DNA of 17,681 nt from Chloroflexota bacterium (GTDB taxonomy: Bacteria; Chloroflexota; Dehalococcoidia; Lucifugimonadales; JACQTT01). Below the pieces are notes generated by a model. That model was not told the DNA's origin, searched no databases, and saw only the letters and a program-made list of their open reading frames with translations. Shown piece after piece: positions 3,289 through 17,681 of this stretch (positions are counted from its first letter, which is position 1; every line of letters begins with the position of its first letter). Location of the stretch: contig JACQTT010000013.1 in the NCBI GenBank assembly GCA_016210665.1, forward strand, positions 1-17,681. The letters run 5' to 3'. A program made the translations under genes and the position numbers.

Positions 3289-3477
3289 AGTGGAACTGTG
3301 CTTATTGTCTGCGAGTCCAGACCCTTCTAACAGGTGCAGATGAGCTGATTATGACCGGTACGGGCTACTGCTTCTTCGTGGTACATCTGAACCTTGTGTA
3401 GGTCTGCCTGCGATGTATAATTGATGGCACAGAGAGGTCTCTTATCTCCGAGTTATGCACCGCTGAGGCAATGGACT
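3289..3477. promoter_or_regulatory. Copy C of the regulatory module, with a sigma70-like promoter for the kinase/regulator operon.
   Basis: Motif CAGGTGCAGATGAGCTG at 3331-3347. A -35-like TTGTGT (3394-3399), a 16-nt spacer and a TG-preceded TATAAT (3416-3421) predict a transcription start near 3428. The RBS GAGG (3464-3467) lies 10 nt before the ATG at 3478. Confidence 0.5.
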
Positions 3478-4722
3478 ATGGAAAAGAGTTCAGCCCCCAA
3501 CTACGCCGTCTTCGACGACTATCGCTCCAGCCAGGGCATAGCCGTGGTGGTCCGGTGGTTCATGCTGGCAACCTGGCTCACCCTCATCAACATCCGTTCC
3601 CAGGAGCCCAACCTTCCCTATCTCAACACGATGGGCGCGGCCCTGATCATACTCAACGGCTACGTCCATTGGAGGATTTGGAGGGGCAGGCCCATTACAT
3701 GGCCCTACGTCCTGGCCCTGAGCCTGATGGACCTCACCATTATCACGGCGGGCATCATGGTCACCAGCAGGTTCGGGAACACCTATTATATCTTTTACTA
3801 TCCGGCGCTTCTGGGCGTAGCCCTCATCTTCCGCCGCCGGGTCAGCTTTGCCATTGTCACCATTATCGCTGGGTTCTATGCCGGCATCAGCCTGACTATG
3901 AAGCCAGGATTAGACACATCGGTGCTCTTTGACGGCGACGAGAAGGAGCTCACCGTCAGGGTGGTATGCATGTTCGCCGTCGTGGTAGCTGCGAATCTCA
4001 TGACTCGGTTGGAGAGGCAGCGGCGAGCCGAGGCGGTGGAGGCGGAACGGATCCGCATGGAGGAGAACCTTCTGCTCCAGCGCAGAGCGGAGGAGGCAGA
4101 GCGGGAGGCACAGGAGGAGCGGATTCGCATCTCCCAGGAGATTCACGACGGGGCGGCCCAGTCGGCCTACATGCTCAGCCTTGGCCTTGAGACTTGCTGT
4201 CACATGGCCGGCCAAGAGGCCCCCCAGCTCCACGACAGGCTGAAGGCACTCCACGCAGAGTCCAAGCAGGCCCTGTTGGAGCTTCGCTATCCAATCAACC
4301 TCGGGCCCCTGTTCGAAGGCAGAGGCCTGACACAGATCCTGGCAGACCACCTGACGAATTTCAGGGCCATAACTTCTATCCCCACGCATTTCTCCATGAC
4401 CGGACAGGAGACGGAGTTGCCACTAGCCACCCAGCAGCGGCTGTTTGCGCTAGCCCACAATGCCCTGACCAATGCCTACAAGTATGCCCAGGCTACCGAG
4501 GTCAATGTGGAGCTGGTCTGCGATGACAAGACGCTAAAGCTTTCCATCAGCGATAACGGGGTGGGCATGGACACTACCGCACTGGCCGCCTCCTCCGGCC
4601 ACGGGATACGGAACATGCGCCGCACCGCAGAGGAGATGGGAGGGGCTCTGGATATAACCAGTGCTCCGGGGAAGGGTACAATAGTGAGCGTAGCCCTCTC
4701 TCTTTCGGGAGGTGCGCCGTGA
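3478..4722 (+). CDS. Membrane-embedded sensor histidine kinase of the HisKA_3 family (DesK/LiaS/NarX-type) with a HATPase_c domain.
   Basis: The N-terminal part has about 5-6 TM helices with no obvious extracytoplasmic domain. It has a coiled-coil linker, an H-box RISQEIHDGAAQS typical of HisKA_3, and C-terminal N/G boxes (LAHNALTNAYKYA ... ISDNGVGM ... GHGIRNMRRTAEEMGG). The track ORF begins at 3421 (TTG). I prefer 3478 because the predicted -10 places the transcription start downstream of the 3421/3424 start candidates. Confidence 0.85.
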   Translation: MEKSSAPNYAVFDDYRSSQGIAVVVRWFMLATWLTLINIRSQEPNLPYLNTMGAALIILNGYVHWRIWRGRPITWPYVLALSLMDLTIITAGIMVTSRFGNTYYIFYYPALLGVALIFRRRVSFAIVTIIAGFYAGISLTMKPGLDTSVLFDGDEKELTVRVVCMFAVVVAANLMTRLERQRRAEAVEAERIRMEENLLLQRRAEEAEREAQEERIRISQEIHDGAAQSAYMLSLGLETCCHMAGQEAPQLHDRLKALHAESKQALLELRYPINLGPLFEGRGLTQILADHLTNFRAITSIPTHFSMTGQETELPLATQQRLFALAHNALTNAYKYAQATEVNVELVCDDKTLKLSISDNGVGMDTTALAASSGHGIRNMRRTAEEMGGALDITSAPGKGTIVSVALSLSGGAP

Positions 4723-5384
4723 GCCCTCTGAGAGTCATGATTGTGGACGATCACCAGGTCGTGAGAGAGGGATTGCGAAAGGTCCTGGAAGTAGAGGAAA
4801 ACATCGAGGTAGTGGGGGAGGCGGGGGATGGGAGGCAAGCTGTGGACAAGGCACAGGAGCTCAAGCCGGACGTGATCCTCATGGACGTAATGATGCCTGG
4901 CATGAATGGTATAGATGCCTGCCAGGAGATCAAGGGTCTCTTACCCCGTACCGCCGTGGTGATGCTCACCGCCTCAGGGCTAGCGGAGTCCGTTACTGCT
5001 TCCCTAGTGGCGGGCGCTCAGGGCTACGTGCTGAAAGTCGTTGGGCGGGACGAGTTGGTCCGCGCCATCAGAGCCGTAGGGCGAGGCGAGTCTATCCTGG
5101 ACCCTTCCGTGACCAGGATAGTCACTGAAGGCTTCTCTCGCCTGGTGGGCCAGGAGAGGCAGCGAGAGGTGGAGCGACTTACCTCCCGAGAGAAGGAGGT
5201 GCTGCTCCTGGTGGCCCGGGGAGAAACCAACAGAGAGGTGGCCGAGCGGCTGGTCATCAGCGAGTTCACGGCAAGAAATACGGTGAGCAATATCCTGGGT
5301 AAGCTTGGGCTGAGGAATCGCTCTGAACTGGTGCGTTGGGCCTTGAACAACAGGGTGGTAATGGAGCCTGGTAACTACTCGTAA
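4719..5384 (+). CDS. NarL/FixJ-family response regulator (receiver domain plus LuxR-type HTH).
   Basis: GTG start at 4719 preceded by GGAGGTG, overlapping the kinase stop by 4 nt. It has an MIVDDHQVVREGL receiver with the conserved D (ILMDVMMPGMNG). The C-terminal LuxR HTH reads LTSREKEVLLLVARGETNREVAERLVISEFTARNTVSNILGKLGL. Confidence 0.9.
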   Translation: MSPLRVMIVDDHQVVREGLRKVLEVEENIEVVGEAGDGRQAVDKAQELKPDVILMDVMMPGMNGIDACQEIKGLLPRTAVVMLTASGLAESVTASLVAGAQGYVLKVVGRDELVRAIRAVGRGESILDPSVTRIVTEGFSRLVGQERQREVERLTSREKEVLLLVARGETNREVAERLVISEFTARNTVSNILGKLGLRNRSELVRWALNNRVVMEPGNYS

Positions 5385-12448: not shown

Positions 12449-13774
12449 CTACTGAGCAGGAGGCGGCAGCACCTTGCGCGCCTGGCGGATGACGCCTAGT
12501 AAAAGAAGGGCCACTATAACAGCGACCACGCCAAGGGCCGCAGGTAAGAGCCAGGGGAACCGCTCGCTGACGGGAGGCCTCTTCTCCACATAGTCGGGAT
12601 TGGTGTTCTGGGGACCCAGGGCAGCTTGCGCCAACTCCTCGGTCTCGAGGTAGGGAAAGACCCGCTCGATATCATAAGAAGGCCGCCGGGCTTCGAGATT
12701 ACCGTAGTAGAGCTTGTACAACTGCCCGGGGTCTGTCGTGTAGAGGAGGCTGCGACGATAGCTCCATGCATCTACACCTTCGATATGAAGAGGCGGGCTG
12801 TCCTCGTCGTGGATGACCAGGCGTAGATAGCGTAAGGTGGTCTCGGGATAGACGATGGCGAGGTTACCTCCAACAAACTTCGGGGTGTCGTAGGCGTAGA
12901 TGCCAGCCCTCGACTGGGCGGTGCTCCACTCCTTACGGTCAGCACTCTCCTCTATGGTGACCTCTCGATAGAAGTTGACCTCGGACACCCTAACCTGAAC
13001 GCGATGGCTAGGAAGCCCTGGGCTACCCGTGTCCATCTCCACGAGGGTGGCGCGGCGATCTCTGTCGTAGCTAGTGCTTACCATAGATACGGGCCAGGAC
13101 ACCTCTTGTGCTGGGGTAACCTTTATAAAGAAAGTGGTAGCGCCGAGTACGTCCAGGGGGCCTTCACCCTCGTCGGCGACCTTAACCCGCAGATAACGCG
13201 CCGTGCTGGCTGGATACCCTATCCTTGTGTTGCTGGCGCTAAAGTTTCGCTCCTTGACGGTGAAATCATAGATTTCCTGCTTGCCTACCTCAGCCCATGT
13301 ACCTCCATCGTTACTGGTTTCCACGGTGGCTGTACGGCGGAAGTTGATGGCGGGAGTCTGGAACTCGATCTCGTTGTGTAGGAGTCCATCGCGCCCCAGG
13401 TCGGCGATGAATGTGGTGTAGAGGTCAGGAACGTAACCCTTGTCCTGTAAGGTCACTGGGAAGGACGTAAACTGACGCTCGCCCCTACTGACCTGGAACT
13501 TGTACGGAACCTCCGTGCCAGCGGTGGAGATGATGCGAAGGTCAACCAGGCCGAGGGCCGAGCCAGCAAACACCTCGCGATCTGGGACGAGCTCCACAAG
13601 ACCCTTGCTAAGGAGGTTAGAAGGGGAAGCAATGGGCTTGAAGTACTGCCAGTCACGGAGTAAGAAGTCAGCCGCCACGCTGGAGGCGAGCAAGGCCGTC
13701 AGAACGACGGCAGCGGTGATGGATCTGGCAACTAGAGCGACCCTACTTCTCAACCAGGAACCCCCTGATGGCAC
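12449..13774 (-). CDS. DUF3999-like protein: N-terminal signal/anchor, a large beta-rich extracytoplasmic domain, and a C-terminal TM anchor.
   Basis: A 441-aa ORF with N-terminal hydrophobic segment ITAAVVLTALLASSVAA and C-terminal anchor FPWLLPAALGVVAVIVALLLLGVI followed by RQARK. The overall length and topology match my recollection of Pfam DUF3999. It overlaps the upstream DUF2339-like gene by 32 nt, so the two are probably translationally coupled. The family assignment is from memory and is not searchable here. Confidence 0.65.
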   Translation of the reverse strand: MPSGGSWLRSRVALVARSITAAVVLTALLASSVAADFLLRDWQYFKPIASPSNLLSKGLVELVPDREVFAGSALGLVDLRIISTAGTEVPYKFQVSRGERQFTSFPVTLQDKGYVPDLYTTFIADLGRDGLLHNEIEFQTPAINFRRTATVETSNDGGTWAEVGKQEIYDFTVKERNFSASNTRIGYPASTARYLRVKVADEGEGPLDVLGATTFFIKVTPAQEVSWPVSMVSTSYDRDRRATLVEMDTGSPGLPSHRVQVRVSEVNFYREVTIEESADRKEWSTAQSRAGIYAYDTPKFVGGNLAIVYPETTLRYLRLVIHDEDSPPLHIEGVDAWSYRRSLLYTTDPGQLYKLYYGNLEARRPSYDIERVFPYLETEELAQAALGPQNTNPDYVEKRPPVSERFPWLLPAALGVVAVIVALLLLGVIRQARKVLPPPAQ

Positions 13775-15704
13775 GACTGTAGCGCTGGTAGAGATAAGCG
13801 CTAGCTAGCAGGATGACCCCCAGACCCATGAAGGCACCTATGCGGTAGACACGCTCCAGGGCAAATATGTCGTAAACAAACACCTTGGCGATGGGGATAA
13901 GGAGAAGACCCAGGGCGGCCAGACGAATCGGGCGTGAGCGCTTGACTATGCCAATAACCAGGGCAATGGCGGCGTAGCCGGCCCATATAGCGGTGAGGGA
14001 GAGATTCTGAGCGTTTCTGAGGTTGTCGTCGGTACCCCTAAACCTCTCAAAGCGGGGCAGCTCTGTAAACCTGCTGTCGAAGTAGCTGAGCGCCTCCGCG
14101 CTGAGGATCCAGAGGGAGAAGACGTTGGCAGCCAATATAAAAATAGGATACACGAACCAGGCGTTCCTCTCCCACTCGTCCAGTGACCCTCTTTCACGCC
14201 AGAGAAGGCGTGCGGCGATGTATATGGAGGCGATGCTTACCAGAAACGCTAGAAAGCGCTCGTTGAGCACCGGGCGGAAAGTAGCCAAATCTACATAATC
14301 AATCGGCGTGTCGAAAAAGAGCAGTCGCACGGCTACGAGAACGAAGGCGGCGTAACTAAAGATGCGGGTTCGAGGCATCTGCAACGTAAACGATAGCCAC
14401 ATAAGCACTGTACCCTCGGCTGCCCAGGCAATAGTCGTCCAGGCCCTATCGCCTAACTGCACTGGGATGGCGATGGTAAGAAACACCAGGGCGATGCCCA
14501 GGGCCAGGAAGCTGAGCCTCACATTTTCGGCGCTACGTTTAAGGGCGACATAGGCGAGGCCGCCGTAGAACAGGGCCAGGAGGATAGAGAAGCCCCCCAT
14601 CCATAGTCTGAAGTCATCCCACAAAAGCCCATAGCTTATCCCAAAGTAGGCACCCGCGTTGATAATCATGAGAGCCTGGTCGAAAGCCTGGGGAGCACGA
14701 CGCCAGACGATGTGATAAAGGGTCGTGGCTCCTACAAAGATGAGGAATATCAGGGTCAGGCCACCCTGGGATGTCAGCAGGCTCGCTTCGTTGCCAAACT
14801 CGCTATACCATCCCCCGAAAGCCACCAGAGTCGCCAGGAGCGAAAGAAGGGTGAACCAGCGCCAGTTGCGGAAGGTGGACAACGCTAGGACACCCAGGTC
14901 AACTACCATTATGTAAACCAGGAGTTGTATGCTCTCGCCGGCCTGGGCAGCCCCACGCGTCTCTGGTGCAAAGCCACCAAGGATAAAGGGTGCGCCGAAG
15001 GCCCCAAGGATACCGATTATCGCCAACGCCGTGGAATCGTGGCGAAGGGCCAGGGCCGCCGAGGTCACACTGATCAGTAGCAGGAAACCGACGGCGGGAT
15101 TCAGGGTAATCAGGTTAAAGATGGCAAAGGCGGCGAAGATAGCCAGGTATAGGAGGGCAATGCCGCCTCCCATCAGGGCCTGGGCGTAGGCTGGGTATCG
15201 TTTTTGCCAGTACTCACCGGCTCCTAGCATTGCCAGCCCAGCTATGATTCCCAGGACTACACGCCCTGTCGGGCCTATCCAGTTGTTGTCGAAGGCTAGC
15301 TTGAGGAAGAAGGCAACGCCAATAATAATAGCAAGAACCCCAATCCTGGCTAGCCAGTTGCCGCCAAAGATCTGCTCCCAGTCCCACTCCTTCATTCTCT
15401 TGAAAATGTCTCCATCAGGTGGTGCTGGAGTTTCTTCGGCTAGACCAGGGACCTCTCCGGCGGTAACCGAGGCGACCTCTAGCGCAGGTGTCGGCTGGAG
15501 AGGCGGTGCGGCGACTCCTCGTACGCGTTCAAGGGCAGCCAGACGCTCGTTCATAGCCACAAGGTTACCCCCTAAGCGGCGCACCTCGGCCTGGAGCGCT
15601 TCTATCTGCTGAGCCGAGGTTTCAGGTGCTGCAAGAGCGGTGCCACAGGAGATGCAGAACCGACTGTTCGGGGTGTTCTCGTGCTGGCAGTTGGGGCAGC
15701 GCAT
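13743..15704 (-). CDS. DUF2339-like large polytopic membrane protein with an N-terminal zinc ribbon and coiled coil.
   Basis: A 653-aa ORF with ATG at 15702-15704 preceded by GGAGACAGGA. It has CPNCQHEN...CISCG (zinc ribbon) and QQIEALQAEVRRLGGNLVAMNERLAALER (coiled coil). About 18-20 predicted TM helices then begin at FGGNWLARIGVLAIIIGVAFFLKLAF, which is typical of DUF2339 proteins as I recall them. Confidence 0.65.
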   Translation of the reverse strand: MRCPNCQHENTPNSRFCISCGTALAAPETSAQQIEALQAEVRRLGGNLVAMNERLAALERVRGVAAPPLQPTPALEVASVTAGEVPGLAEETPAPPDGDIFKRMKEWDWEQIFGGNWLARIGVLAIIIGVAFFLKLAFDNNWIGPTGRVVLGIIAGLAMLGAGEYWQKRYPAYAQALMGGGIALLYLAIFAAFAIFNLITLNPAVGFLLLISVTSAALALRHDSTALAIIGILGAFGAPFILGGFAPETRGAAQAGESIQLLVYIMVVDLGVLALSTFRNWRWFTLLSLLATLVAFGGWYSEFGNEASLLTSQGGLTLIFLIFVGATTLYHIVWRRAPQAFDQALMIINAGAYFGISYGLLWDDFRLWMGGFSILLALFYGGLAYVALKRSAENVRLSFLALGIALVFLTIAIPVQLGDRAWTTIAWAAEGTVLMWLSFTLQMPRTRIFSYAAFVLVAVRLLFFDTPIDYVDLATFRPVLNERFLAFLVSIASIYIAARLLWRERGSLDEWERNAWFVYPIFILAANVFSLWILSAEALSYFDSRFTELPRFERFRGTDDNLRNAQNLSLTAIWAGYAAIALVIGIVKRSRPIRLAALGLLLIPIAKVFVYDIFALERVYRIGAFMGLGVILLASAYLYQRYSRAIRGFLVEK

Positions 15705-15880
15705 TCCTGTCTCCTTACCCTAGTCTTCGTAGCTTACTGCACCCTCGCAGCCTCGTCAATCATTATGTCTTCAAGCAAGATAAAAACAATCGCCCCTTGA
15801 TGCGATTCACGGGGCGGTTGCCTTTAAGAATGGATGTCTGTTTGGGGATTATATACTTGTCGGGGTTTGAGTGGTAGACT

Positions 15881-16603
15881 ATGGTGGGCGGCATGAACGC
15901 CCGCCTCGCACTCTACATAATTGGGACAATTCTTATCGTGCTAAGCGTCATCGAGAATGCGCTGCCGGAGGCTATCGGAGGCATACTTGCCGGGCTGCTT
16001 ACCATCTTCACAGTTGCTGTCCTATCGCATTGGCGCCTGCATCGCCCTTTCAATTTTAGATTCTCCCTTGACCCGTATCGTTTTAGTCCGCAACTAGTCA
16101 GGGAGCGCAAACATGCAACGCATTGGGAGATCGCAGTCAATCAGGAAGCGGAATTACTACTGAGAATCATGCCCAGGAAGGGAACTCACTTCACTCGCGT
16201 AGGCGTTCGCTGTGTGGAACGGTACTTCACATGGAGATGGGACATTCTGCGCCCGCGAGTTTGGGCATGGCGGAATGCTCCGACATCAGCAATTGAGATT
16301 AGAGCGGTGCGCGACATTGACTCCGAAAGCATCAATTCGGCGACCCACCAATTAGGTACGCAGTTCAGGACTTGGCCTGATGGCGTGGGTGGAATGTGGG
16401 GAGAATATCACCCACCTTACCATCGGACTATGGAGGACTCGTTATGGCTCTGCGTCAAGTTGGTCGCATACAGACCATGGACGGGGCACATATCCTTCCA
16501 GGGGCATATTGATGAGGACCATCGTGCCTATAGCCGTCGAGCGCTTTGGGCTATTGAGCAACCAGACGTTCATATGGCAAGTTATCACTGCCTAGAAGCC
16601 TAG
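15881..16603 (+). CDS. Hypothetical passenger protein inside the IS. It has an N-terminal 2-TM hairpin and a W/R/H-rich soluble domain of unknown function.
   Basis: A 240-aa ORF lying entirely between the inverted repeats. It has TM segments LALYIIGTILIVLSVI and IGGILAGLLTIFTVAVL and no recognisable family motif. Its 3' end overlaps the convergent transposase gene by 53 nt. The true start may be the second Met at 15893. Confidence 0.4.
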   Translation: MVGGMNARLALYIIGTILIVLSVIENALPEAIGGILAGLLTIFTVAVLSHWRLHRPFNFRFSLDPYRFSPQLVRERKHATHWEIAVNQEAELLLRIMPRKGTHFTRVGVRCVERYFTWRWDILRPRVWAWRNAPTSAIEIRAVRDIDSESINSATHQLGTQFRTWPDGVGGMWGEYHPPYHRTMEDSLWLCVKLVAYRPWTGHISFQGHIDEDHRAYSRRALWAIEQPDVHMASYHCLEA

Positions 16604-17441
16604 TGAGTGTATCCCGAAACAGATACGGGTTCTTGCGATTGTTGAACCGCCATTCTAATTCATCCAGGTAAGCATCAAGGTGTTTGGCAGAGAGCTTATG
16701 ATAAGAGCCAGTGATAGACCGCTTGAAGAGACTCCATACCCCTTCTACAGTGTTGGTGTGAACATCGCCCCTTACCCATTCCTCTGCCCGGTGATTTACC
16801 GTCTCATGGCTCGTATCCTCATCGGAAATCCCTCTGTATGCAGGCCATTCGTCCGTGATGATTCTCCGCACCCTGGGGTCTGTGCTATTGTGGATAAAAT
16901 CATGGAGTGTCTGCCTGTCATTGCCGTCAACGACCTGAAGAACAACATCCCCACCACGTTGCATCGCTCCTGCCACGATAGTCTTGTTACCTTTATAGCC
17001 ATGCCCCTTCCCTCGAACCTTCCCACCTATATAGGTCTCATCCACCTCGATAGTGCCAGAGAGAGTGTTTGCTTCGGCCATAGCAGCCCTTATCCTGTGG
17101 CAGAGATACCATGCTGTCTTGTAGGAGACTCCCAGGGTTCTCTTGACCTGATTGGCCGAGATACCCTTTTTGGCCTCGACCATCAGCAAGACAGCCATGA
17201 ACCACTTGCGGAGCGGGAGTTTGGTATCCTGGAAGATAGTCCCAGCAAGAGCGGTGAAGCCATAGCCACAGCCGTAGCAGTCATAGCGGTAGGTCTTGGA
17301 GTCGTAGCCATGTTTAGTACACTTGCATCGTGGACACTCTGCGCCATTTGGCCAGCGAAGCCGAGCAAGAGTATCATGGCAAATATCCTCCGAGTGGAAC
17401 ATCTCGGTGAGTTGGAGTAGGTCAATCTTTTTGGTAGGCAT
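16551..17441 (-). CDS. IS1595-family (ISXO2-like) DDE transposase with an N-terminal zinc-ribbon domain.
   Basis: The N-terminus reads LARLRWPNGAECPRCKCTKHGYDSKTYRYDCYGCGYGF (transposase zinc ribbon). The hallmark IS1595 motif TIEVDETYIGGK is present, with D, D and E residues spaced as in DDE_Tnp_IS1595. A strong AGGAGA SD sits 5 nt before the ATG. Confidence 0.9.
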   Translation of the reverse strand: MPTKKIDLLQLTEMFHSEDICHDTLARLRWPNGAECPRCKCTKHGYDSKTYRYDCYGCGYGFTALAGTIFQDTKLPLRKWFMAVLLMVEAKKGISANQVKRTLGVSYKTAWYLCHRIRAAMAEANTLSGTIEVDETYIGGKVRGKGHGYKGNKTIVAGAMQRGGDVVLQVVDGNDRQTLHDFIHNSTDPRVRRIITDEWPAYRGISDEDTSHETVNHRAEEWVRGDVHTNTVEGVWSLFKRSITGSYHKLSAKHLDAYLDELEWRFNNRKNPYLFRDTLTRLLGSDNLPYERLVAQ

Positions 17442-17453
17442 TGGAGTCTCCTA

Positions 17454-17621
17454 TGACTAAGCGTAAGAAGAAAGACGTAACTGAAATGACGACGGACGAA
17501 CTAGCCCGCCATGTATTCCCAAAGAAGGTTGTAGCTGAGCTAAAGCGGGTCGCTCATCAAGGAGATGAGAAGGACGATTCGGAGGGGAAACCTGAGCAAA
17601 GTGCATCATCACGCAGTTAGT
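17454..17621 (+). CDS. Possible small basic protein (55 aa) encoded divergently inside the transposase leader. Very tentative.
   Basis: ATG at 17454 preceded by GGAG (17443-17446). The translation is MTKRKKKDVTEMTTDELARHVFPKKVVAELKRVAHQGDEKDDSEGKPEQSASSRS. It is below the 60-aa cutoff of the ORF track and has no recognisable family. Confidence 0.2.
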
Positions 17622-17681
17622 GTATCACAGGTATTATACCCTGTCAAGTATATAAGCCCCCTTGTATCATTGGTTTAGAGG

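What the first reader, a model, noticed from the sequence alone, without database searches (positions are those of the whole stretch)
15844..17661. IS1595-family element with matching terminal repeats carries a passenger gene and sits just upstream of the DUF2339 operon.
The matching ends (GGGGATTATATACTTGTCGGGG against GGGGGCTTATATACTTGACAGGG) bound 1.8 kb. That is about twice the size needed for the 296-aa transposase, and the remainder is filled by a 240-aa ORF. Passenger-carrying members of the IS1595 family exist, but the cargo here matches nothing I recognise.

The repeat core TTATATAC is TATA-like on both strands. At the left end the minus strand reads TATATAAT (forward coordinates 15848-15855) pointing outward toward the DUF2339 gene 145 bp away. 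At the right end a TTGACA (17642-17647) and a TATAAT (17632-17637), reading on the minus strand, point inward toward the transposase. The insertion could therefore drive or disrupt the downstream membrane operon.
Basis: seen in the sequence. Interest (0 to 1): 0.7.

Follow-up and report, generated by a model that had tools for sequence, protein, structure and literature searches.

The report
Cargo-carrying IS1595 insertion sequence
This is a real 1.8-kb jumping-gene element of the IS1595 family that carries, besides its transposase, a small conserved gene and a membrane-protein "passenger" gene; it is a known kind of element and probably does not affect the neighbouring DUF2339 operon.

Summary
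Window 15844-17660 (1,817 bp) is a passenger-carrying IS1595-family insertion sequence. Its ends match at 21 of 25 bases, and the same ends bound more than 30 related elements in other genomes, most with clean 8-bp target duplications. The transposase is intact (zinc ribbon, D134-D197-E233-K240).

The 240-aa ORF, more likely 236 aa starting at 15893, lies inside the mobile unit. It fills a cargo slot found in every relative: convergent with the transposase gene, overlapping its 3' end, starting 26-82 nt (mostly 40-50) inside the far repeat. Closely related backbones (85-91% identical) carry unrelated cargo. In 29 of 32 elements the cargo begins with membrane helices.

The cargo is not an orphan: 93 remote homologues exist. 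One is the cargo of another IS1595 element and one sits in an unrelated rve-type IS. Its confident model is a two-helix membrane hairpin plus a generic beta-sandwich; function unknown.

The outward promoter is unsupported. A strong terminator and the operon's own conserved promoter region separate the IS from DUF2339. This copy has no target duplication. Verdict: new member of a known kind, moderate interest.

The parts
15844..15868 (.). Terminal inverted repeat on the cargo side (GGGGATTATATACTTGTCGGGGTTT). This is the outer end of the element.
   Evidence: 21/25 match with the other end. The same xGxxA+TTATATACTTGAC terminus occurs in more than 30 related elements flanked by 8-bp TSDs.
17636..17660 (.). 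Terminal inverted repeat on the transposase side (reverse complement GGGGCTTATATACTTGACAGGGTAT). This is the outer end of the element.
16551..17441 (-). Transposase gene, 296 aa: N-terminal CxxC...CxxC zinc ribbon plus DDE(K) catalytic domain. Intact and full length.
   Evidence: PF12762 and PF12760. NF033547 213.7 bits. Relatives match residues 1-295. Family-invariant C36 C39 C55 C58 D134 D197 E233 K240 are all present. NCBI names it IS1595 family transposase.
17453..17620 (+). Conserved small gene, 55 aa, basic N-terminus (MTKRKKKDVTEMTTDELARHVFPKKVVAELKRVAHQGDEK...). It is divergent from the transposase gene (11 nt between the start codons) and reads outward toward the repeat. Function unknown.
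   Evidence: tblastn finds it in about 60 of 80 related loci. Among 42 distinct orthologues the frame is open in 42/42, aa identity is 0.49, and codon-position differences are 0.435/0.292/0.641. The other five frames have stops in 18-41 of 42. No hit in Pfam, NCBIfam, PHROGs, PADLOC or PDB.
15893..16603 (+). Passenger (cargo) gene, 236 aa from ATG 15893; the 240-aa reading from ATG 15881 is less likely. It encodes a two-helix membrane hairpin plus an all-beta sandwich domain. It is convergent with the transposase gene and overlaps its 3' end by 53 nt.
   Evidence: Family of 93 representatives at E<=1e-3, best 45% identity. Homologues align from the 15893 start. AlphaFold2 with 51 sequences: pLDDT 91.4, pTM 0.85. 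Only generic Ig/cohesin-like fold matches. The same position and orientation is seen in all related elements.
17619..17647 (-). Inward promoter for the transposase: -35 TTGACA (17642-17647) inside the repeat, 17-nt spacer, TG-extended -10 TACACT (17619-17624). Predicted transcription start near 17612.
   Evidence: Best promoter match in the region, 10/12 with TG. The TTGACA-17-TAnnnT pattern sits at IS positions 14-42 in nearly all 33 aligned elements. Function is inferred, not shown.
15872..15880 (+). Extended -10-like motif TGGTAGACT just upstream of the cargo start; candidate cargo promoter.
   Evidence: TGGTA(G/A)AAT lies 6-7 nt before the cargo start codon in many relatives. GAGTGGTAGAAT also precedes the homologous gene in the rve-type IS of L087. 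Inference only.
15781..15826 (-). Context, outside the IS: intrinsic-terminator hairpin (GC stem CGCCCC/GGGGCG followed by UUGUUUUUAU) on the strand of the transposase gene and DUF2339.
   Evidence: Terminator scan hit. RNA fold -24 kcal/mol, z -3.62, 0 of 200 shuffles as stable.
15731..15759 (-). Context: candidate native DUF2339 promoter TTGACG-17-TAAGCT, followed by GGAGAC (15709-15714) and ATG 15704.
   Evidence: Read from the sequence. It lies within the stretch conserved with relative L082, where homology runs to 15762. It has only 3/6 in the -10 and was not flagged by the scan. Inference.
12449..15704 (-). Context: DUF2339 (13743-15704) and DUF3999 (12449-13774), an overlapping gene pair next to the IS.
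   Evidence: Pfam. The same gene pair occurs in L082 at 82.6% nt identity.

Best explanation
Window 15844-17660 is one copy of a passenger-carrying insertion sequence (a 'transporter IS') of the IS1595 family. Its ends look like the ISNwi1 subgroup.

Mobility. The element moves as a unit. The DDE(K) transposase, with an N-terminal zinc ribbon, recognises the roughly 25-bp terminal inverted repeats. Insertion normally makes an 8-bp target duplication.

Three genes lie between the repeats:
1. The transposase gene. It is probably transcribed from a TTGACA-17-TACACT promoter whose -35 sits inside the repeat.
2. A conserved 55-aa basic protein gene, divergent from the transposase gene. It is probably an accessory or regulatory factor; this is inferred.
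3. A cargo gene in a fixed slot between the transposase 3' end and the far repeat. It is probably expressed from an extended -10 motif next to that repeat with a very short leader.

Cargo. It encodes a membrane-tethered beta-sandwich protein of unknown function. The positive-inside rule suggests the beta domain faces the cytoplasm. Across the clade the backbone is conserved while the cargo is exchanged wholesale.

This copy. It lies 139 bp upstream of the DUF2339-DUF3999 operon. A terminator separates it from the operon, so it is most likely neutral for the operon. It lacks a target duplication, so it is either an old insertion, a product of recombination between copies, or an assembly join.

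Shown: the element's ends, family membership, gene content, conservation of the architecture, cargo replacement, and the cargo fold.
Inferred: promoter use, the roles of the small protein and the cargo, and current mobility.
For: - Ends: IR 21/25. The core occurs twice only, with 0.09 expected.
- Transposase: domains and family model; catalytic and zinc residues invariant and present.
- Relatives: 569 related loci in genome contigs, best 80 kept. In 33 delimited elements the same termini lie about 200 bp upstream of the transposase gene and 1.7-4.5 kb away in inverted orientation. 20 of 32 have perfect 8-bp TSDs.
- Closest backbone: L097 (transposase 85% aa) is complete with TSD AATGCTTT.
- Homologous cargo in a mobile unit: L091 carries an ORF240 homologue (about 37-43% identity) in the same slot, with TSD AACGCATA.
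- Cargo slot: a convergent ORF starts 26-82 nt (mostly 40-50) from the end in all elements. 29 of 32 have an N-terminal membrane-like segment.
- Cargo replacement: L020/L026 are 90.9% identical over positions 3-1054 and then at random level until the last ~45 nt. L015/L032, L051/L072, L024/L055 and WIN/L097 behave the same way.
- Small ORF: purifying-selection signature.
- Promoters.
- Composition: the IS is 50-53% GC, against 57-59% in the flanks.
- Terminator and conserved DUF2339 upstream region.
Against: - This copy has no target duplication: the flanks are GTCTGTTT and CTTGTATC.
- Only one copy is visible. The exact transposase is on record on one contig only.
- The element lies 21 nt from the contig end, so its right-hand context is unknown.
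- No empty site could be recovered.
- Four of seven sampled members of the cargo family are not next to any IS, so the gene type also lives outside mobile elements.
- The distance from the -10-like motif to the 15893 ATG (12 nt) is longer than the 6-7 nt typical of the clade.
- No transcription, transposition or protein data exist.
- The ISNwi1 assignment rests on a consensus recalled from memory, not on a comparison with ISfinder.
Confidence: 0.85

Rival explanations
1. The mobile unit is only the transposase module. The 236-aa gene would be an ordinary chromosomal gene that happens to lie between that IS and a solo or fortuitous repeat at 15844.
For: No target duplication at this copy. Homologues of the 236-aa protein occur as stand-alone genes with no IS nearby.
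Against: - No second inward repeat exists next to the transposase stop. The cargo ORF overlaps the transposase gene by 53 nt, exactly as in all relatives.
- Elements with TSDs enclose the cargo in 20 of 32 cases. These include one with a homologous cargo (L091) and the closest backbone (L097).
- The 11-mer core is far too rare to occur by chance.
- The cargo region shares the lower GC of the IS.
Confidence: 0.05
2. The element is genuine, but this copy is not a simple insertion. Its two flanks would come from different sites, either through homologous recombination between two copies in the genome or through a metagenome assembly join across a repeated backbone.
For: - No TSD.
- The element is at the very end of a 17,681-bp MAG contig, which is the whole record.
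- An independent Logan contig (L081) reproduces the left junction but stops inside the transposase gene at 16710. That is what would be expected if the backbone is repeated in that sample.
- 9 of 32 relatives also lack TSDs.
Against: The left junction and cargo are confirmed at 100% identity in a second assembly. Nothing shows a second copy. An old insertion with mutated flanks explains the data equally well; the IRs themselves differ at 4 of 25 positions.
Confidence: 0.25
3. The insertion rewires the DUF2339-DUF3999 operon by read-out transcription or an outward promoter in the repeat.
For: The transposase gene and DUF2339 are on the same strand, and the transposase promoter is near consensus. 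The repeat core reads TATATAAT outward.
Against: - The outward TATAAT has no acceptable -35 and was not flagged.
- A stable terminator hairpin with a U-tract lies at 15781-15826 on that strand.
- The 58 nt upstream of DUF2339, holding TTGACG-17-TAAGCT and a Shine-Dalgarno sequence, are conserved with the IS-free relative L082.
- Read-out would also have to cross 700 nt antisense to an expressed cargo gene.
Confidence: 0.07

Closest known systems
IS1595 family, ISNwi1 subgroup and its passenger-carrying members (ISfinder; Siguier, Gagnevin & Chandler 2009, cited in PMC8101967 and PMC3129680)
   Same: - DDE_Tnp_IS1595 catalytic domain and N-terminal zinc ribbon.
- Terminal inverted repeats.
- 8-bp target duplications in relatives.
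- Ends of the form GGnnATTAT and a DDE-K motif. Both match my recollection of the ISNwi1 entry in the ISfinder table; this is memory, not a test.
- Size in the range I recall for passenger-carrying members (about 1.75-4.75 kb).
   Different: The family is described as having a single transposase gene (PMC8101967). Here a conserved small divergent gene is part of the backbone, and the cargo sits in a fixed, promoter-equipped slot with wholesale exchange between close relatives. I could not check whether ISfinder or TnPedia already record these points.
Transporter IS (tIS) in general, e.g. ISDsp3 of the IS6 family in Dehalococcoides (PMC7986276)
   Same: An IS-sized element whose repeats enclose one extra gene of unknown function unrelated to transposition, found in Chloroflexi-type hosts.
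   Different: Different transposase family. ISDsp3 is reported as a single case, whereas here the passenger position is a clade-wide feature seen in several phyla.
IS1 (relative of IS1595) with its small InsA regulator
   Same: Related transposase: a weak NF033558 hit, 32.7 bits, below the cut-off. A small basic protein is encoded at the transposase-proximal end, and there is a promoter in the terminal repeat.
   Different: InsA is co-directional with the transposase frame and fused to it by frameshifting. Here the small gene is divergent and shows no sequence similarity to anything known. A regulatory role is only an analogy.
Phage 'morons' and integron cassettes (functional analogy only)
   Same: A fixed position in a mobile backbone where unrelated genes, each with expression signals, replace one another between close relatives.
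   Different: No integrase, attC or phage context. The exchange mechanism is unknown, and the cargo is restricted to membrane-anchored proteins.

Membership tests
IS1595 family (insertion sequences) | Transposase with the DDE_Tnp_IS1595 catalytic domain | tested here: met
   PF12762 E=1.4e-40 over the full profile. NF033547 213.7 bits against a cut-off of 75. D134, D197, E233 and K240 are invariant in 34 aligned relatives and present here.
IS1595 family (insertion sequences) | N-terminal zinc-ribbon domain (present in all groups except IS1016; PMC8101967) | tested here: met
   PF12760 E=6.9e-10. C36, C39, C55 and C58 are invariant.
IS1595 family (insertion sequences) | Terminal inverted repeats bounding the element | tested here: met
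   21/25 match. The same termini occur in more than 30 relatives.
IS1595 family (insertion sequences) | 8-bp target-site duplication | tested here: inconclusive
   Absent at this copy (GTCTGTTT against CTTGTATC). Present and perfect in 20 of 32 related elements and in L091 and L097. Loss at single copies is common and does not exclude membership.
IS1595 family (insertion sequences) | Single transposase gene as the only ORF (typical description, PMC8101967) | tested here: not met
   Two further genes lie inside the repeats. This is what separates a passenger-carrying (tIS) member from a plain IS. It is not an exclusion criterion for the family, which is known to include passenger-carrying members (PMC3129680).
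ISNwi1 subgroup of IS1595 | Characteristic ends (ggnnatTAT) and DDE-K motif, as I recall them from the ISfinder family table | tested here: met
   The ends are GGGGATTAT and GGGGCTTAT, and the motif is D134-D197-E233-K240. The reference consensus is from memory. No held paper gave it.
ISNwi1 subgroup of IS1595 | Transposase clusters with ISNwi1-group reference sequences | not testable with these tools
   No ISfinder reference sequences are available.
Transporter IS (tIS) | A gene unrelated to transposition lies between the repeats and moves with the element | tested here: met
   TSD-flanked relatives enclose the cargo, including a homologous cargo in L091. Movement of this particular copy was not shown.
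Composite transposon or solo repeat next to a minimal IS | A second inward-facing repeat adjacent to the transposase stop codon, or two transposase copies | tested here: not met
   No further copy of the core with up to 1 mismatch in the window. Only one transposase gene.
Known anti-phage defence or phage protein families (for the cargo and the small ORF) | Match to a PADLOC or PHROGs model | tested here: not met
   No hit for either protein. No Pfam hit in 51 of 51 cargo-family members.

The most novel reading that the evidence does not exclude
This IS1595 clade has thousands of transposase homologues in Chloroflexota, Acidobacteriota, Nitrospirota, Planctomycetota and Verrucomicrobiota. It may be a dedicated carrier of exchangeable membrane-protein genes rather than a plain IS that occasionally picks up a passenger.

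On this reading it has a three-part backbone: inward promoters in or next to both repeats, a conserved 40-55-aa basic protein, and the transposase. It also has a fixed expression slot in which unrelated genes replace one another even between backbones that are 85-91% identical. Nearly all of these genes encode N-terminally membrane-anchored proteins.

The same cargo family also rides in an unrelated rve-type IS. That points to a shared pool of IS-borne membrane proteins with a common selective role, for example exclusion, defence or envelope variation, or control of the element itself through convergent transcription across the transposase gene.
Probability: 0.3. Interest if true: 0.6.

Novelty: new member of a known kind. 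Interest (0 to 1): 0.4.

Why it matters
For this locus the result is mostly clarifying. The element is a bona fide passenger-carrying IS1595 member with an intact transposase. The neighbouring DUF2339-DUF3999 operon is probably insulated from it.

The wider pattern is the more interesting part:
- A very widespread IS clade in poorly studied environmental phyla carries a conserved, unannotated small gene.
- The clade has a fixed slot for swapped, membrane-anchored proteins with no annotated family (the 10 tested have no significant Pfam match).
- One cargo family is shared with an unrelated IS type.

If this is systematic, these elements would be a simple, tractable vehicle for horizontal spread and rapid turnover of membrane proteins. 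They would also be a source of many 'hypothetical' genes in metagenome-assembled genomes. It would bear on the old question of where insertion sequences end and transposons begin.

Tried and rejected
- Exact-sequence look-ups of the transposase and the 240-aa ORF found nothing.
- The word-indexed protein search returned only a self-hit, suggesting an orphan. The exhaustive HMMER search overturned this.
- L081 turned out to be the same locus from the same population, so it is not an independent copy.
- Single-sequence AlphaFold2 was useless (pLDDT 40.9). The alignment-based model was good.
- Empty-site search: the closest relative, L082, shares only 12450-15762, so no pre-insertion site could be reconstructed.
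- The metagenome scan with the cargo alignment failed once and then gave only two loci, neither in an IS.
- The 51-codon antisense ORF at 17457-17612 starts at the predicted transposase transcription start. I rejected it as a gene because that frame has stops in 18 of 42 relatives and the codon-position pattern fits the outward ORF.
- Common ancestry of different cargos: blastp clusters almost none of them, and hhalign of the ORF240 family against four other cargos gave probabilities of 1.5% or less.
- No Rfam family in the region.
- No PADLOC, PHROGs or PDB sequence match for the cargo or the small ORF.
- Literature: the ISfinder subgroup table and Siguier 2009 are not in the held library. 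The ISNwi1 assignment therefore stays a recollection.
- The direct repeat AGTGAGTGTATC/AGTTAGTGTATC after the two stop codons (D5) was judged to be chance.
Full report
**1. The observation**

The repeat finder reports arms 15844-15866 and 17638-17660, 23 nt, 87% complementary. Aligned from the tips, 21 of the first 25 positions match.

The 11-base core TTATATACTTG occurs exactly twice in 17.7 kb, once at each end in inverted orientation. About 0.09 matches are expected, and none of 200 shuffles reached two.

Between the repeats lie three ORFs:
- 16551..17441(-), 296 aa
- 15881..16603(+), 240 aa

The 296-aa protein matches DDE_Tnp_IS1595 (E=1.4e-40), the IS1595 zinc ribbon (E=6.9e-10) and NCBIfam NF033547 (213.7 bits, cut-off 75). 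NCBI annotates it as an IS1595 family transposase. The window is the whole 17,681-bp contig of a Chloroflexi MAG.

**2. Are these the real ends, and is the 240-aa ORF inside?**

A scan of one genome per species found 569 loci encoding relatives of the transposase, and the best 80 (55-75% identity) were fetched. The core motif lies about 200 bp upstream of the transposase gene in most of them. A second, inverted copy lies 1.7-4.5 kb away.

I delimited 33 elements with the rule 'end = 5 nt outside the core'. This gives perfect 8-bp direct repeats of flanking DNA in 20 of 32 testable elements and one-mismatch repeats in three more. These are therefore the true transposition ends.

In every element the space between the transposase stop codon and the far repeat holds an ORF on the opposite strand. 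That ORF starts 26-82 nt (mostly 40-50) inside the repeat and ends at, or overlapping, the transposase stop. The window's ORF fits this exactly: it starts 37 or 49 nt from the end and overlaps by 53 nt.

Two further elements settle the point:
- L097 has the closest known transposase (85% aa). It is complete with TSD AATGCTTT.
- L091/L092 carries a homologue of the window's passenger in the same slot, with TSD AACGCATA.

By the same rule the window element is 15844-17660, 1,817 bp.

**3. What this copy lacks**

Its flanks, GTCTGTTT and CTTGTATC, are not a duplication. Nine of 32 relatives also lack one. The element ends 21 nt from the contig end.

An independent Logan contig (L081) reproduces 15795-16710 at 100% identity but stops inside the transposase gene. 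The closest related genome (L082, DUF2339 80% aa) is collinear only over 12450-15762, so no empty site could be reconstructed.

An old insertion, recombination between copies, or an assembly join all remain possible. None of them changes what the element is.

**4. The transposase**

The transposase is full length relative to its homologues. It keeps every residue that is invariant in 34 relatives, including C36, C39, C55 and C58 and D134, D197, E233 and K240. The IS is 50-53% G+C against 57-59% for the neighbouring genes.

**5. A conserved small gene**

The 55-aa ORF at 17453-17620 starts 11 nt from the transposase start codon on the other strand and reads outward. tblastn finds it in about 60 of the 80 loci.

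Across 42 distinct orthologues:
- the frame is open in all 42
- amino-acid identity is 0.49
- nucleotide differences at codon positions 1, 2 and 3 are 0.435, 0.292 and 0.641
- the other five frames contain stops in 18-41 of the 42

The consensus is MPrKKKxxxEMTTEELAKRlFPKKVxxELKRVAHEKD. It has no match in Pfam, NCBIfam, PHROGs, PADLOC or PDB sequences. It lies on the same strand as the cargo gene. Its role is unknown. A regulatory or accessory function is an inference by analogy with small IS-encoded proteins.

**6. Promoters**

Aligning the first 80 nt of both ends of 33 elements shows the following on the transposase side:
- TTGACA at IS positions 14-19
- a 17-nt spacer
- a TAnnnT hexamer at positions 37-42, often preceded by TG

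In the window this is TTGACA (17642-17647) and TACACT (17619-17624). It is the best promoter match in the region, 10/12 with TG.

On the cargo side a TGGTA(G/A)AAT motif sits 6-7 nt before the cargo start codon in many elements, which suggests leaderless or near-leaderless transcripts. The window has TGGTAGACT at 15872-15880, and the homologous start codon is ATG 15893. These are sequence inferences.

The outward TATATAAT at the left end has no acceptable -35 and was not flagged.

**7. Effect on the DUF2339 operon**

DUF2339 (13743-15704) and DUF3999 (12449-13774) overlap and form a conserved pair. Between the IS end and DUF2339, on their shared strand, lies a hairpin with a GC stem and a U-tract at 15781-15826. 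Its fold energy is -24 kcal/mol with z = -3.6, and none of 200 shuffles was as stable.

Homology with the IS-free relative reaches 58 nt upstream of the start codon. That stretch contains TTGACG-17-TAAGCT and a Shine-Dalgarno sequence. Read-out from the IS is therefore likely to be terminated, and the operon probably keeps its own promoter.

**8. The cargo protein**

The word-indexed search found only a self-hit. An exhaustive HMMER search of 1.84 billion representatives found 93 proteins at E<=1e-3 and 32 at E<=1e-10. The best is 45% identical, and nearly all are 150-290 aa. None of 51 members has a Pfam match.

With this alignment AlphaFold2 gives a confident model (pLDDT 91.4, pTM 0.85). 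It shows two membrane helices (2-20 and 25-50) followed by an all-beta domain. The single-sequence run had failed.

Genomic contexts of seven family members:
- two are cargo of IS1595 elements (this one and L091)
- one (P0123, eight contigs) lies inside a different IS with an rve-type transposase bounded by 21-bp repeats, preceded by the same GAGTGGTAGAAT motif
- four show no IS nearby

**9. Cargo turnover**

Pairs of elements with similar backbones lose all similarity at the transposase 3' end. They regain it only in the last ~45 nt.
- L020/L026: 90.9% identical over positions 3-1054, then 30-45%.
- L015/L032, L051/L072, L024/L055 and window/L097 show the same pattern.

Cargo proteins mostly do not cluster by blastp. 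Profile comparison of the ORF240 family with four other cargos gives probabilities of 1.5% or less. Nine other cargos have no significant Pfam match.

Yet 29 of 32 cargos have at least one hydrophobic, membrane-like segment in the first 110 residues. The cargo is thus replaced rather than gradually diverged, and it is drawn from a restricted class of proteins. How the exchange happens was not determined.

**10. Comparison with what is known**

The IS1595 family is defined by the DDE_Tnp_IS1595 domain, an N-terminal zinc finger (except in IS1016), usually 8-bp duplications, and a single transposase gene (PMC8101967). Passenger-carrying 'transporter IS' were first described in this family (Siguier et al. 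2009, cited in PMC3129680 and PMC7986276).

The ends GGnnATTAT and the DDE-K motif match what I recall for the ISNwi1 subgroup, whose passenger-carrying members I recall as spanning about 1.75-4.75 kb. I could not retrieve that table, so the subgroup assignment is a lead and not a test.

I file the element as a new member of a known kind. The conserved small gene, the promoter-equipped cargo slot and the bias toward membrane-anchored cargo may or may not already be recorded in ISfinder or TnPedia. No paper in the held library describes them.

**11. Verdict**

- Observation: confirmed.
- Interpretation: partly supported. Identity, ends and passenger are right; the -10 assignment, the outward promoter and the effect on the operon are not.
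- Interest: moderate (0.4). The most novel reading not excluded is that this clade is a dedicated carrier of exchangeable membrane-protein genes.

Noticed in passing
window 17453-17620 (+): A conserved 55-aa basic protein gene, divergent from the transposase gene and reading out through the repeat. It is present in nearly all relatives across several phyla, matches no database family, and is not part of the usual 'single ORF' description of IS1595 elements.
   Followed up: yes
L087 2313-4102 (also L088-L090): A homologue of the window's passenger (P0123, 36% identity) lies inside a different insertion sequence. That element has an rve/IS481-like 324-aa transposase bounded by 21-bp inverted repeats (90% match), and the gene is preceded by the same GAGTGGTAGAAT motif as in the window.
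   Followed up: partly
window 15781-15826 (-): A strong intrinsic-terminator hairpin (-24 kcal/mol, z -3.6) lies 18 nt outside the IS end. The IS appears to have landed between an unseen upstream gene and that gene's terminator.
   Followed up: partly
window 17457-17612 (-): A 51-codon ORF starting exactly at the predicted transposase transcription start, fully antisense to the small gene. It is open here but interrupted in 18 of 42 relatives, so it is probably not a gene.
   Followed up: yes
L054, L058, L098, L035 (cargo regions): Other insertion sequences are nested in the cargo slot of several relatives. L054 has an IS21-like pair, L058 a mutator-type transposase, L098 an IS3-family element and L035 a second IS1595-type transposase gene. 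These account for the largest elements (3.4-4.5 kb).
   Followed up: no
related loci: The 8-bp target duplications of this clade are mostly A+T-rich (AAATATTT three times, TATAATTT, ATTTAATT, AATTAATC). This suggests a target preference. The window's flanks are not of this type.
   Followed up: no
L040-L052 and L057-L065: Two Bryobacterales MAGs each hold at least 9-13 near-identical copies of a related element with the same cargo and different TSDs. This is direct evidence that cargo-bearing elements of this clade transpose as units.
   Followed up: partly
window 15844-17660 against flanks: G+C content is 50-53% across the element and 57-59% in the adjacent DUF2339/DUF3999 genes.
   Followed up: yes
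window 13743-15704 (-): The DUF2339 membrane protein begins with a zinc-ribbon domain (PF13240) and overlaps the downstream DUF3999 gene by 32 nt. The pair is conserved in relative L082, but genes on both sides differ.
   Followed up: partly
window 3421-5384 (+): A HisKA_3 histidine kinase and a LuxR-type response regulator form an overlapping two-component pair. Other window genes are ordinary: a Band_7 protein, an amidohydrolase, an MA peptidase, a luciferase-like monooxygenase, a PIG-L deacetylase and a PHO4 phosphate transporter.
   Followed up: no
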